Assembly: GCF_000027125.1 (NCBI RefSeq)
Contig: NC_017626.1
DNA length: 64,000 nt
From: Escherichia coli 042
GTDB lineage: Bacteria; Pseudomonadota; Gammaproteobacteria; Enterobacterales; Enterobacteriaceae
Reading direction: 5' to 3' (one strand)
Shown: piece after piece, positions 61,601-64,000 of the stretch
Position numbering within the stretch: the first letter of the stretch is position 1
How the letters are laid out: the number at the start of each line of letters is the position of its first letter
Made by a program: the position numbers

Positions 61601-64000
61601 TTAAATAACCCACAAACTGACCTTCCTTCATTAAGGCGACTTTTCCCGTGTGGTGATAAACAATGACGTTATAAAGACCTGACTGATAAACAGTGGCATC
61701 TTTATTGTCTTCATCAATTGCACATAATGAATCATTGAGATAAGCAAAGTTCTTACTGCTCATTCTAAAGGTCATGCCAAATCCTTTATAAATAGATTTT
61801 TTAGCGGCCTGGGCATGTTGTGCGGCTTCTGCATTTTTAAATGCCTGCGCCTCGGATGCACTTAAAATAGCCGTCTGACGCTGTTGTTCTGCGAGATAAC
61901 AGGTGTCATGGCTGACGCCCTGCGCCTGGCAATCTGCGATGCGGGAAGTGGGTGAACTACAGCCAGCCAGTAATATAACCGCCAGCAGGGAAAACGATTT
62001 AATGGAACTATTCATCATTGTTAACCTTAAATAATGTACAAATTAATGAAGAGGTGAAACCCGGCAAGCTTCCTTGCTCTTATTTATATTGAGGATTGGA
62101 ATATTAGAAAGAATATCCCACGCCGACACCCGCGCCGAAATCAGATTGCGTATCCGCAGAGACACCGGCTTTAATCACGGTATGCGTTCCGGCATTAAAA
62201 GATGTTCCGACAGACACCGCAGATTCACCGTTGAAGGTTCCCGCTCCCGCTGACATCATCATAAAGTCACCGGCTTTCACCTGTGGTTGTGAGGCGATAG
62301 CGATGGCTGATGCAGTTCCCGCATTGGCTTCTTTACGGTTGTCCTCAACTTCGTTTTTCAGCGAACTGAAATGGTTATTGAGCGTAGTAATCTGCTGGCT
62401 ATTATCCGCTACTCGTTTTTGCGTGTTGCTTAACTGCTGATGCGTTTGGGTTACGTCTTGTGTCAGGCTGTCAATTTGTTCATGCGTTTGTGTTGAGTCT
62501 TGCGCCAGACGCTGAATTTGTTCCCCGTACTGCACACTATTGATATGCTGTTGCGTTGCCTGGTTAGTCGCCAGAGTATCTATTTTTTGTTTTTGTTCTG
62601 CTGCAGTACGCGCATTCGCATCATTTTGTGCTCTCAGTCCGGCGTTAACCATCTCTTGATAATGTGCGTTGGTCTGGGCATCGCCAAGTGCGGAAACCGT
62701 TTTTTGCGTCGCGTCGATTTGTTTCTGCTGATCGTCCATTTGTTGCTGCTGGGTGTCAGCTTGTGCCTGTTGCGCATTGGCAGCGGCTGTCTGTCTGGCG
62801 TCAATCATGCTCTGATATCGGGCGGCAGTCTGCACATCCCCGGTGGCGGCAACGATTTTCCGGGTTTCGTCGAGTTGTTGCTGTTGGTCAGCAATATCGC
62901 TGCGGTTCTGTTCGATATTATTTTTGTTTTCTGTCACAGCACCGGAAAGTTTGACGCCGTTAATCAGAGCGGTGTTGGCGTTAGCGTTGGCATGGTCAGC
63001 CGTTGACTGGGCATGTGCGACATCGCCTTTTATGTTGGTGACGTCTGACTGCACTGCGGAGACATCATTACGGGTGTCGGCGATGGCGGCTTTATTGGCA
63101 TCAATATCCGTCTGCGCCACCGTGATGGCGTGCTGCGCGTCATCAGCTTTCATTGAAGCCCAGTTGGCGGCATGTTGTGCGTCCTGAATGGCGGTATCCT
63201 GCCCGTTGTCGCGGACGATCTGTTTTTGCTCGTTTGATGCCAACAGTTTCTGCTGGTCAGCAATATCGCTGCGGTTCTGTTCGATATTATTTTTGTTTTC
63301 TGTCACAGCAGAGGAGAGTTTGACGCCGTTCATCAGAGCGGTGTTGGCGTTAGCGTTGGCATGGTCAGCCGTTGACTGGGCATGTGCGACATCGCCTTTT
63401 ATGTTGGTGACGTCTGACTGCACTGCGGAGACATCATTACGGATGTCGGTGATGGCGGCTTTATTGGCATCAATATCCGTCTGCGCCACCGTGATGGCGT
63501 GTTGCGCGTCATCAGCTTTCAGTGAAGCCCAGTTGGCGGCATGTTGTGCGTCCTGAATGGCGGTATCCTGCCCGTTGTCGCGGACGATCTGTTTTTGCTC
63601 GTTTGATGCCAACAGTTTCTGCTGGTCAGCAATATCGCTGCGGTTCTGTTCGATGTTGTTTTTGTTTTCTGTCACAGCACCGGAAAGTTTGACGCCGTTA
63701 ATCAGAGCGGTGTTGGCGTTAGCGTTGGCATGGTCAGCCGTTGACTGGGCATGTGCGACATCGCCTTTTATGTTGGTGACGTCTGACTGCACTGCGGAGA
63801 CATCATTACGGGTATCGGTGATGGCGGCTGTATTGGCATCAATATCCGTCTGCGCCACCGTGATGGCGTGCTGCGCGTCATCAGCTTTCAGTGAAGCCCA
63901 GTTGGCGGCGTGCTGCGCGTCCTGAATGGCGGTATCCTGCCCGTTGTCGCGGTCGGTCTGCGCTTGATTGGTTATCGGGTTCAGCGTATTGGTGGGCTGT

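What the first reader, a model, noticed from the sequence alone, without database searches (positions are those of the whole stretch)
62104..64000. YadA-like trimeric autotransporter with near-perfect 369-bp tandem repeats, truncated by the window edge
Downstream of cueR and convergent to it is a minus-strand gene whose C-terminus has the hallmarks of a type Vc anchor (...AGTASAIAIASQPQ... and terminal ...GVGVGYSF). Its stalk consists of 123-aa coiled-coil repeats whose DNA copies (62885, 63254, 63623) differ by only a few substitutions, implying recent expansion and probable copy-number variation. The reading frame is still open at position 64000, so the head domain and true start are outside the window. 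I recall ybbJ/qmcA at this position in K-12; this gene is not in that position in my memory of K-12.
Basis: partly seen in the sequence, partly recalled or inferred. Interest (0 to 1): 0.65.

Follow-up and report, generated by a model that had tools for sequence, protein, structure and literature searches.

The report
Headless trimeric autotransporter with variable-length stalk
This is the 3' 88% of an E. coli gene for an outer-membrane-anchored trimeric coiled-coil fibre whose stalk carries three near-identical 123-residue units (0 to 5 in other strains); it is an ordinary kind of protein, but its O157:H7 counterpart has been published as a cytoplasmic transcription factor, "GmrA", which its sequence contradicts.

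Summary
A minus-strand frame is open from the stop at 62104 to the window edge. It ends in a YadA-type anchor (Pfam E = 5.6e-11; similar to the solved Hia and AtaA anchors). It contains a 369-bp tandem array (62876-63961, 2.9 copies, 96% matches).

In genomes identical over the last 3 kb of the window, the gene starts only 257 nt beyond the edge. The 717-aa product has a signal peptide, a roughly 45-aa helical N-domain, a Pro/Thr-rich linker, about 560 aa of coiled coil and the anchor. There is no head domain.

Copy-number variation is real. Intact alleles carry 0, 1, 2, 3, 4 or 5 units. 181 of 5,426 complete E. coli genomes carry at least 2 units.

The locus is O-island 29 (cueR to ybbJ). It is a four-gene cassette, also found in Pseudocitrobacter.

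RefSeq truncates the repeat-bearing alleles I examined to 349 aa.

Verdict: a new member of a known kind. Interest is moderate, mainly because of the GmrA conflict.

The parts
62104..64000 (-). 3' part (codons 87-717 plus stop, and one base of codon 86) of the trimeric autotransporter gene. The ATG lies 257 nt beyond the window end, at window-equivalent position 64257.
   Evidence: Open frame. Full ORF of 717 aa from MKTVKLS... in L001, which is 100% identical to window 61000-64000.
62107..62286 (-). YadA-type membrane anchor (residues 658-717), ending in ...GVGVGYSF.
   Evidence: Pfam PF03895, E = 5.6e-11, full model 1-60. phmmer to PDB AtaA 9vnj (7e-07) and Hia 2gr7/3emo. AF2 predicts beta strands here, at low confidence for a monomer.
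62287..62874 (-). Non-repeated coiled-coil stalk (residues about 462-657), with two ...TV(A/S)A(T/L)GD.QT.A.YQ.M... motifs. This part is shared with the O157 allele at 75% identity.
   Evidence: BLASTP. AF2 helices 350-472, 476-522 and 527-655. Weak 42-bp and 21-bp internal periodicities.
62876..63961 (-). 369-bp in-frame tandem array, 2.9 copies. Protein units: aa 104-226 (63580-63948), aa 227-349 (63211-63579), aa 350 to about 461 (62875-63210).
   Evidence: TRF score 2035, 96% matches. Offset comparison. Unit register and substitutions. Heptad register constant within a unit and shifted by +4 per unit.
63568..63630 (-). Unit-to-unit junction (…DIADQQ-KLLASNEQKQIVR-DNGQD…). I used it as a probe that is specific for alleles with at least 2 units.
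   Evidence: 181 of 5,426 genomes, 224 junctions in all, at most 4 per genome.
63151..63153 (-). Internal ATG (Met369), which RefSeq uses as the start codon. It gives a 349-aa product without a signal peptide.
   Evidence: Annotated CDS at L001 16105-17154. The same 1,050-nt call appears in 2-unit and 4-unit genomes whose ORFs are intact.
61596..62018 (-). Downstream gene for a 140-aa lipoprotein (lipobox LLAG|CSS), 85 bp after the autotransporter stop. It is part of the conserved cassette (z0638 in O157).
61396..61599 (-). Gene for a 67-aa protein with one hydrophobic helix. It overlaps the lipoprotein stop by 4 nt and ends 3 nt from the cueR stop.
   Evidence: ORF. 43% identical homologue in the same position in Pseudocitrobacter.

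Best explanation
The region is the 3' 88% of an intact gene for a short, headless type Vc (trimeric) autotransporter of the Escherichia O-island 29 cassette.

Shown by sequence: the 717-aa precursor has
- a Sec signal peptide (MKTVKLSLLAVVVATAVSPSAFA|GD);
- a conserved helical N-terminal domain of about 45 aa;
- a disordered Pro/Thr-rich linker;
- about 560 residues of alpha-helical coiled coil;
- a 60-residue YadA-type anchor.

Inferred from what is established for the family: three chains each contribute four strands to a 12-stranded outer-membrane barrel. The coiled coil is threaded out through it, which leaves the N-terminal domain at the tip of a rigid fibre of roughly 80 nm.

Shown: the stalk includes three tandem 123-aa units encoded by 369-bp direct repeats that are 96-97% identical.

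Inferred: unequal recombination or replication slippage between the repeats adds or removes whole units in frame. 123 = 16 heptads + 11, so the coiled coil can continue across a junction.

Shown: intact alleles with 0, 1, 2, 3, 4 and 5 units exist in Escherichia.

Inferred: each unit changes stalk length by about 18 nm. That alters how far the tip projects relative to O-antigen and capsule, and it also changes the antigenic surface.

The downstream lipoprotein and the small membrane protein probably act with the autotransporter, because they travel with it between genera. The ligand or function of the tip is unknown. My best guess is adhesion or autoaggregation.
For: Anchor: Pfam YadA_anchor E = 5.6e-11 over the whole model; PDB anchors of AtaA and Hia; terminal aromatic residue.

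Full ORF and signal peptide: present in the genome identical to the window over 61000-64000. The hydrophobic core has mean Kyte-Doolittle 2.4, with A-x-A before the cleavage site.

Architecture: the AF2 monomer has a helical N-domain at 27-69, low confidence over 76-98, and helices covering 97-655 with short breaks at the unit junctions. The heptad register is constant within a unit and shifts by +4 per unit. No head or neck Pfam family matches.

Repeats.

Copy-number series: proteins of 338, 457-471, 586-600, 702-717, 825 and 962 aa. Intact ORFs of 594 and 840 aa in complete genomes. Gene spans of 2226, 1857 and 1487 nt. The junction probe hits 181 of 5,426 genomes, with at most 4 junctions in one genome.

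Cassette: the 120-aa divergent gene, the autotransporter, the lipoprotein and the small membrane protein recur in Pseudocitrobacter faecalis next to a recombinase. The autotransporter plus lipoprotein recur in Enterobacter asburiae at another chromosomal site.

N-domain: only 18 cluster representatives among 1.84 billion proteins carry it. In 16 of them it begins at residue 21-38, just behind a signal peptide; the other two are weak internal matches. The distant full-length members P0184 and P0186 also end in YadA-type anchors.
Against: - The 5' 257 nt were not seen in the window itself. They are inferred from genomes that are identical over the last 3 kb but differ from the window at 60 positions further upstream.
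- Nothing here tests trimerisation, surface exposure or adhesion.
- The AF2 model is a monomer with pTM 0.20, and confidence in the anchor is low.
- Deleting the whole O157 island did not reduce adherence to HeLa or Caco-2 cells (PMC5826968).
- The O157 allele has been reported, with EMSA and ChIP-qPCR data, to bind the fliA promoter (PMC5826968).
- The link to the lipoprotein rests on 2 of 3 distant loci examined.
Confidence: 0.85

Rival explanations
1. [not shown]
For: Yang et al. 2018 (PMC5826968) report the following. Deleting z0639 reduces motility and flagellation, and complementation restores them. N-terminally His-tagged protein shifts a fliA promoter fragment. FLAG-tagged protein enriches that promoter in ChIP-qPCR. 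Orthologue deletions reduce motility in eight strains. Orthology to the window gene is shown here: same locus, 75% identity over the C-terminal 255 aa and 46% over the N-terminal stretch (158 aligned residues).
Against: - The paper's deletion primers flank exactly the 338-aa gene that RefSeq calls a YadA family autotransporter adhesin.
- That protein has the same cleavable-looking signal peptide and a YadA_anchor match at E = 2.6e-11.
- No DNA-binding family reaches significance in Pfam or NCBIfam. The only DNA-related matches are coiled-coil noise: TMF_DNA_bd at E = 0.16, and SMC at 22 bits against a cut-off of 567.
- Both alleles are acidic, with pI about 4.7.
- A His-tag placed in front of the signal peptide, as described in the paper, would be expected to keep the protein in the cytoplasm, so the in vitro material need not reflect the native protein (inference).
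- A motility phenotype can arise indirectly from changes in the cell envelope (inference).
Confidence: 0.06
2. It is a decaying gene fragment: only the 349-aa C-terminal part that RefSeq annotates is real, and the repeat array is untranslated remnant DNA.
For: In each of the three repeat-bearing genomes whose annotation I read in full, RefSeq annotates only 1,050 nt. In a 40-genome sample, the repeat junction falls outside any annotated CDS in 39 cases.
Against: - The frame is open through the whole array up to a signal peptide and a start codon in 2-, 3- and 4-unit genomes.
- The 349-aa product would lack a signal peptide, so it could not reach the outer membrane.
- Every length difference between alleles is in frame: multiples of 369 bp, and one 42-bp indel.
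- Substitutions between units 1 and 2 fall in 8 synonymous and 4 non-synonymous codons.
- Full-length proteins of 471-962 aa are called by other annotation pipelines.
Confidence: 0.03
3. It is a phage tail fibre or another prophage-borne fibre (Eib-like) whose C-terminus only resembles an autotransporter anchor.
For: Long coiled-coil fibres with tandem repeats are common in phage tail fibres, and some E. coli trimeric autotransporters (the Eib proteins) are prophage-encoded (my own knowledge).
Against: No phage genes flank it. The neighbours are cueR, a type I secretion operon, ybbJ and qmcA. The anchor matches the full Pfam model and solved anchors. The locus is a 2.6-kb chromosomal islet.
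Confidence: 0.01

Closest known systems
[not shown]
   Same: It sits in the same chromosomal slot between cueR and ybbJ, with the same flanking lipoprotein, 67-aa and 120-aa genes. It has the same signal peptide type and N-terminal domain. Identity is 75% over the distal stalk and anchor.
   Different: The O157 allele is 338 aa and lacks the 123-aa unit entirely. The window allele has three units, about 370 extra residues. The published function (a cytoplasmic activator of fliA) does not fit the sequence features of either allele.
NadA of Neisseria meningitidis: a coiled-coil-dominated trimeric autotransporter without a YadA-type beta-roll head. Basis: my own knowledge of the NadA structures; the NadA3 structure paper PMC6191539 was seen as title and abstract only.
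   Same: The overall plan is the same: signal peptide, small N-terminal tip, long trimeric coiled coil with non-heptad insertions, and a YadA-type anchor. It has no Ylhead, Trp-ring or GIN head modules.
   Different: There is no detectable sequence similarity outside the anchor, and no NadA chain appeared in the PDB search. NadA is about 360-400 aa and has no 123-aa tandem units. The N-terminal domain here is a separate small family.
Saa, the plasmid-borne autoagglutinating adhesin of Shiga-toxigenic E. coli. Its size variation through repeat copy number is my own knowledge.
   Same: It is an E. coli trimeric autotransporter whose length varies between strains through in-frame tandem repeats.
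   Different: The only E. coli plasmid-borne YadA-like proteins in PLSDB that match (which I presume, but did not verify, to be Saa) share only the anchor, at 36% identity over residues 626-717. The replicon, the passenger and the repeat unit all differ.
UpaG/EhaG (E. coli) and SadA (Salmonella), with the helper lipoprotein SadB (my own knowledge).
   Same: They are chromosomal enterobacterial trimeric autotransporters. SadA has a dedicated lipoprotein partner encoded next to it.
   Different: Those are proteins of more than 1,400 aa with head, neck and other repeated passenger modules. The lipoprotein here lies downstream, has Ser at +2 after the lipid-modified Cys, and has a predicted small beta-barrel fold. 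No PDB chain matched it significantly by sequence (best E = 0.54, an unrelated glycoside hydrolase), and no SadB chain was listed in the fold search.

Membership tests
Trimeric autotransporter (type Vc secretion) | C-terminal YadA-type anchor (four strands per chain, preceded by a coiled coil). | tested here: met
   Pfam PF03895, E = 5.6e-11, residues 658-717, model 1-60/60. phmmer to AtaA 9vnj, Hia 2gr7/3emo/2gr8.
Trimeric autotransporter (type Vc secretion) | N-terminal Sec signal peptide. | tested here: met
   By inspection of the extension in L001: MKTVK / LSLLAVVVATAVS / PSAFA|GD. Mean hydropathy 2.4, with A at -3 and -1. No dedicated predictor was available. The signal peptide itself lies outside the window.
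Trimeric autotransporter (type Vc secretion) | Coiled-coil stalk continuous with the anchor. | tested here: met
   AF2 helices 97-655 run into the anchor. Heptad periodicity. Sub-threshold Alanine_zipper and other coiled-coil families only.
Trimeric autotransporter (type Vc secretion) | Obligate homotrimer in the outer membrane, with a surface-exposed passenger. | not testable with these tools
   This needs outer-membrane fractionation, SDS-stable trimer detection and surface labelling.
YadA-like adhesins in the narrow sense (head-neck-stalk-anchor) | Beta-roll head (YadA_head/Ylhead) and neck, or YadA_stalk motifs. | tested here: not met
   No Pfam head, neck or stalk family appears even at E <= 10. 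Only about 86 codons lie upstream of the window, and they encode the signal peptide, a 45-aa helical domain and a linker.
[not shown]
   The paper's deletion primers map to the flanks of L002 6001-7017. Same synteny. 75% and 46% identity over the shared parts.
GmrA (published transcriptional activator of fliA) | A DNA-binding domain. | tested here: not met
   There are no significant matches. The best DNA-related hits are coiled-coil noise: TMF_DNA_bd at E = 0.16, and SMC at 22-28 bits against cut-offs above 500. The protein is acidic, pI 4.7.
GmrA (published transcriptional activator of fliA) | Cytoplasmic location and an effect on motility. | not testable with these tools
   The sequence predicts export (signal peptide plus anchor). 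The phenotype is reported only in PMC5826968.
Saa-like adhesins | Similarity of the passenger to Saa. | tested here: not met
   tblastn against plasmids: the E. coli plasmid YadA-like proteins that match align only over residues 626-717, at 36% identity. I presumed but did not verify that these are Saa.

The most novel reading that the evidence does not exclude
The published regulator GmrA is in fact an exported, outer-membrane trimeric autotransporter, and its reported effect on motility is indirect. O-island 29 would then be a small mobile four-gene surface-fibre cassette made of:
- a divergent 120-aa protein with a weak helix-turn-helix signature;
- a headless autotransporter carrying a previously undescribed N-terminal tip domain, found in only 18 protein clusters among 1.84 billion;
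- a lipoprotein with a PliC/MliC-like barrel;
- a 67-aa membrane protein.
The fibre length would be tuned in steps of about 18 nm by gain and loss of a 123-aa unit.
Probability: 0.55. Interest if true: 0.55.

Novelty: new member of a known kind. Interest (0 to 1): 0.4.

Why it matters
Trimeric autotransporters with repeat-length polymorphism are well known, so the gene itself is not surprising. Three things make it worth a note.

2. In every repeat-bearing genome I examined, RefSeq annotates the gene as a 349-aa product without a signal peptide. Pangenome and adhesin surveys will therefore miss both the export signal and the length variation.

3. The 0-to-5-unit series in lineages such as ST69 is a natural allelic series. 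It could be used to test how stalk length affects tip exposure through O-antigen and capsule.

Tried and rejected
- NCBIfam scans of the autotransporter, the lipoprotein, the 67-aa protein and the 120-aa protein gave only coiled-coil noise (Rad50, SMC) or nothing.
- Pfam gave nothing for the lipoprotein. For the 120-aa protein it gave only a non-significant match to the MqsA helix-turn-helix region, E = 0.12.
- PDB sequence searches with the lipoprotein and the 120-aa protein found nothing meaningful.
- The full-length AF2 model is a monomer with pTM 0.20. I used it only for secondary structure and did not run a fold search on it.
- The consensus promoter and terminator scan found no more sites than shuffled sequence.
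- Similarity to Saa was checked and is limited to the anchor.
- One of the three distant lipoprotein homologues (L005) is not next to an autotransporter, so the association is not universal.
- I did not determine the exact distribution of unit numbers across all genomes, because the search tool lists at most 60 rows. Only the total number of junctions and the maximum per genome are known.

Full report
**Observation**

The minus strand of window 62104-64000 carries one open frame: 631 sense codons ending at a TAA at 62104-62106. It is still open at the window edge.

Tandem Repeats Finder reports a 369-bp period, 2.9 copies, 96% matches and score 2035 at 62877-63960. My own offset-369 comparison bounds the repeated block at 62876-63961, with 27 mismatches in 717 compared positions. 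369 is a multiple of 3, so the array is in frame. The protein units are residues 104-226, 227-349 and 350 to about 461. Units 1 and 2 differ at 13 nucleotides, in 8 synonymous and 4 non-synonymous codons.

**Source and the missing 5' end**

Window 61000-64000 is 100% identical to four complete E. coli chromosome records and at least 99.9% identical to ten more. So the three-copy array is not an assembly artefact.

In one of the identical genomes (strain ECA64, locus L001; window position = L001 position + 45999) the frame continues for only 257 nt beyond the window. It reaches ATG AAA ACT GTA..., with a stop a few codons further upstream. The full product is 717 aa.

The window strain is not ECA64 itself. 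The two differ at 60 positions between 46000 and 61000. The 5' end is therefore inferred, not seen. The same intact N-terminus is present in every allele I examined.

**Anatomy**

- Residues 1-23 look like a Sec signal peptide: basic MKTVK, a hydrophobic core with mean hydropathy 2.4, and AFA|G.
- Residues 24 to about 70 form a small helical domain in the AF2 model, with pLDDT about 78.
- Residues 76-98 are a low-confidence linker rich in Pro and Thr.
- Residues 97-655 are predicted as almost continuous helix. There are short breaks at the two unit junctions (224-231, 343-349) and at two ...A(T/L)GD... motifs.
- The last 60 residues form strands.

Pfam finds one significant domain, YadA_anchor, at E = 5.6e-11 over the whole model. 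It finds no head, neck or stalk family even at E <= 10. phmmer against the PDB finds the membrane anchors of AtaA and Hia.

A crude heptad scan shows one register held for about 100 residues inside each unit, with a shift of +4 from unit to unit. That is what 123 = 16 x 7 + 11 predicts.

The mature protein is 73.7 kDa, has no cysteine and is acidic, with pI 4.7.

So the protein is a headless, coiled-coil-dominated type Vc autotransporter.

**Copy-number variation**

- The whole-gene query covers at least 80% of its length in 343 of 5,426 complete genomes. The matched spans are 2226, 1857 or about 1487 nt, which correspond to 3, 2 or 1 units.
- A 63-nt probe specific for the unit-to-unit junction hits 181 genomes, with 224 junctions in all and at most 4 in one genome.
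- In the large protein collection, intact alleles are 457-471 aa (1 unit), 586-600 (2), 702-717 (3), 825 (4) and 962 (5). All come from Escherichia or Shigella, including E. marmotae.
- I verified intact ORFs of 594 aa (2 units, an ST69 isolate) and 840 aa (4 units) in complete genomes.
- A second in-frame polymorphism is a 14-aa (42-bp) deletion between two DAQHA direct repeats inside a unit (the 2959-nt spans are consistent with it).

The mechanism (unequal recombination or slippage between 369-bp repeats) is inferred.

**Locus and cassette**

The gene lies between cueR and ybbJ. In the window it is followed, on the same strand, by a 140-aa lipoprotein gene (61596-62018, lipobox LLAG|C) and a 67-aa gene with one hydrophobic helix (61396-61599). 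Just outside the window, in L001, a divergent 120-aa gene precedes it.

This is O-island 29 of O157:H7 EDL933, which has the same four genes.

The cassette is mobile.
- Pseudocitrobacter faecalis carries the same gene order next to a recombinase gene at a different chromosomal site. It has a 121-aa gene (46% identical), an autotransporter with the same N-domain (41%) and anchor (42%), a second autotransporter-like gene, the lipoprotein (49%) and the small membrane protein (43%).
- Enterobacter asburiae has an autotransporter plus lipoprotein pair.
- A third lipoprotein homologue has no autotransporter neighbour.

A profile of the N-terminal domain finds only 18 cluster representatives among 1.84 billion proteins. 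In 16 of them the domain begins at residue 21-38, directly behind the signal peptide; the other two are weak internal matches. The distant full-length members P0184 and P0186 also end in YadA-type anchors. The N-domain is therefore the one conserved passenger element of a small autotransporter family, and it is the likely functional tip (inference).

**The GmrA conflict**

About 1,000 further genomes, including O157:H7, carry at this locus an allele whose anchor-proximal 600 nt are 81-83% identical but which lacks the 123-aa unit.

In EDL933 this allele is a 338-aa protein that RefSeq names "YadA family autotransporter adhesin". It is 75% identical to the window protein over the last 255 residues and 46% over the N-terminal stretch (158 aligned residues). 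Its YadA_anchor match has E = 2.6e-11.

I find no DNA-binding family at a significant level in either allele. The only DNA-related matches are to coiled-coil families: Pfam TMF_DNA_bd at E = 0.16, and NCBIfam SMC at 22-28 bits against cut-offs above 500. One of these may be the source of the CDD prediction (inference). Both proteins are acidic.

Reviews up to 2024 repeat the transcription-factor assignment. Of the six papers in the searched library that hold at least two of the terms GmrA, OI-29 and autotransporter, none that I read links GmrA to an autotransporter. Earlier genome papers had recognised the gene's nature: the EAEC 042 paper lists Ec042-0536 as a second trimeric autotransporter "with no clues to function", and the O157 Sakai paper lists a "Saa-like protein" ECs0548 in S-loop 43 (I did not verify that this is the same gene).

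I cannot test the published experiments. The motility phenotype may be real and indirect. The sequence predicts export and insertion into the outer membrane.

**Annotation**

In ECA64 and in the 2-unit and 4-unit genomes I checked, RefSeq annotates only the last 1,050 nt, starting at Met369 (window 63153). That leaves the array, the N-domain and the signal peptide unannotated. In a 40-genome sample the junction probe falls in "no feature" in 39 cases. The annotated 349-aa product could not be exported, so this is an annotation artefact rather than biology.

**Comparison with known systems**

The protein passes the tests I could run for type Vc autotransporters: anchor, signal peptide and a coiled coil running into the anchor. 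It fails the test for a YadA-style head. In plan it is closest to coiled-coil-dominated members such as NadA, without sequence similarity outside the anchor. The E. coli plasmid-borne YadA-like proteins that match it (presumed Saa-type) share only the anchor, at 36% identity. Repeat-driven length variation is a familiar property of this class.

**Verdict**

This is a real, intact (by inference) and ordinary kind of gene: a new member of a known kind. It has a well-documented 0-to-5-unit stalk polymorphism. Interest is moderate (0.4). It comes mainly from the conflict with the published function of its O157 orthologue, the systematic mis-annotation, and the small, previously undescribed cassette and tip domain.

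Noticed in passing
window 51069-51071, and around 45816: The giant type I-secreted adhesin gene siiEA upstream is broken in the window strain. There is an in-frame TAG at 51069-51071 where strain ECA64 has TGG (a single difference at 51070). The long ORFs also change frame near 45816. In ECA64 the gene is annotated as one intact 20.8-kb CDS. In O157 EDL933 and EAEC 042 it is also a pseudogene.
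   Followed up: partly
window 63151-63153 (Met369); L001 16105-17154; L006; L007: RefSeq annotates the repeat-bearing alleles I examined as a 349-aa protein starting at an internal Met. The signal peptide, N-domain and repeat array are left unannotated, although the ORF is intact (594, 717 and 840 aa in the three genomes checked).
   Followed up: yes
[not shown]
   Followed up: yes
[not shown]
   Followed up: partly
[not shown]
   Followed up: partly
L001 19162-20510 (outside the window): In strain ECA64 an IS3-family element, IS1397, is inserted between the 120-aa gene and ybbJ. It is absent from the O157, ST69 and WP4-S18 loci I examined.
   Followed up: no
window 63868-63922, 63499-63553 and 63130-63184 (the two DAQHA-coding direct repeats in each unit): A 42-bp (14-aa) in-frame deletion between two DAQHA-coding direct repeats distinguishes some alleles: 457-aa versus 471-aa proteins, and 702 versus 717 aa. 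The 2959-nt spans seen in five genomes are consistent with it.
   Followed up: partly
residues 24-70 of the protein (mostly beyond the window edge; L001 18049-18189): The N-terminal domain (…ELxAIxxGMSxxExxQKIxRFxER…) is rare. Only 18 cluster representatives among 1.84 billion proteins carry it. In 16 it begins at residue 21-38, directly behind the signal peptide. The distant full-length members I read (P0184, P0186) are also anchor-bearing autotransporters with unrelated repeat-rich passengers.
   Followed up: partly
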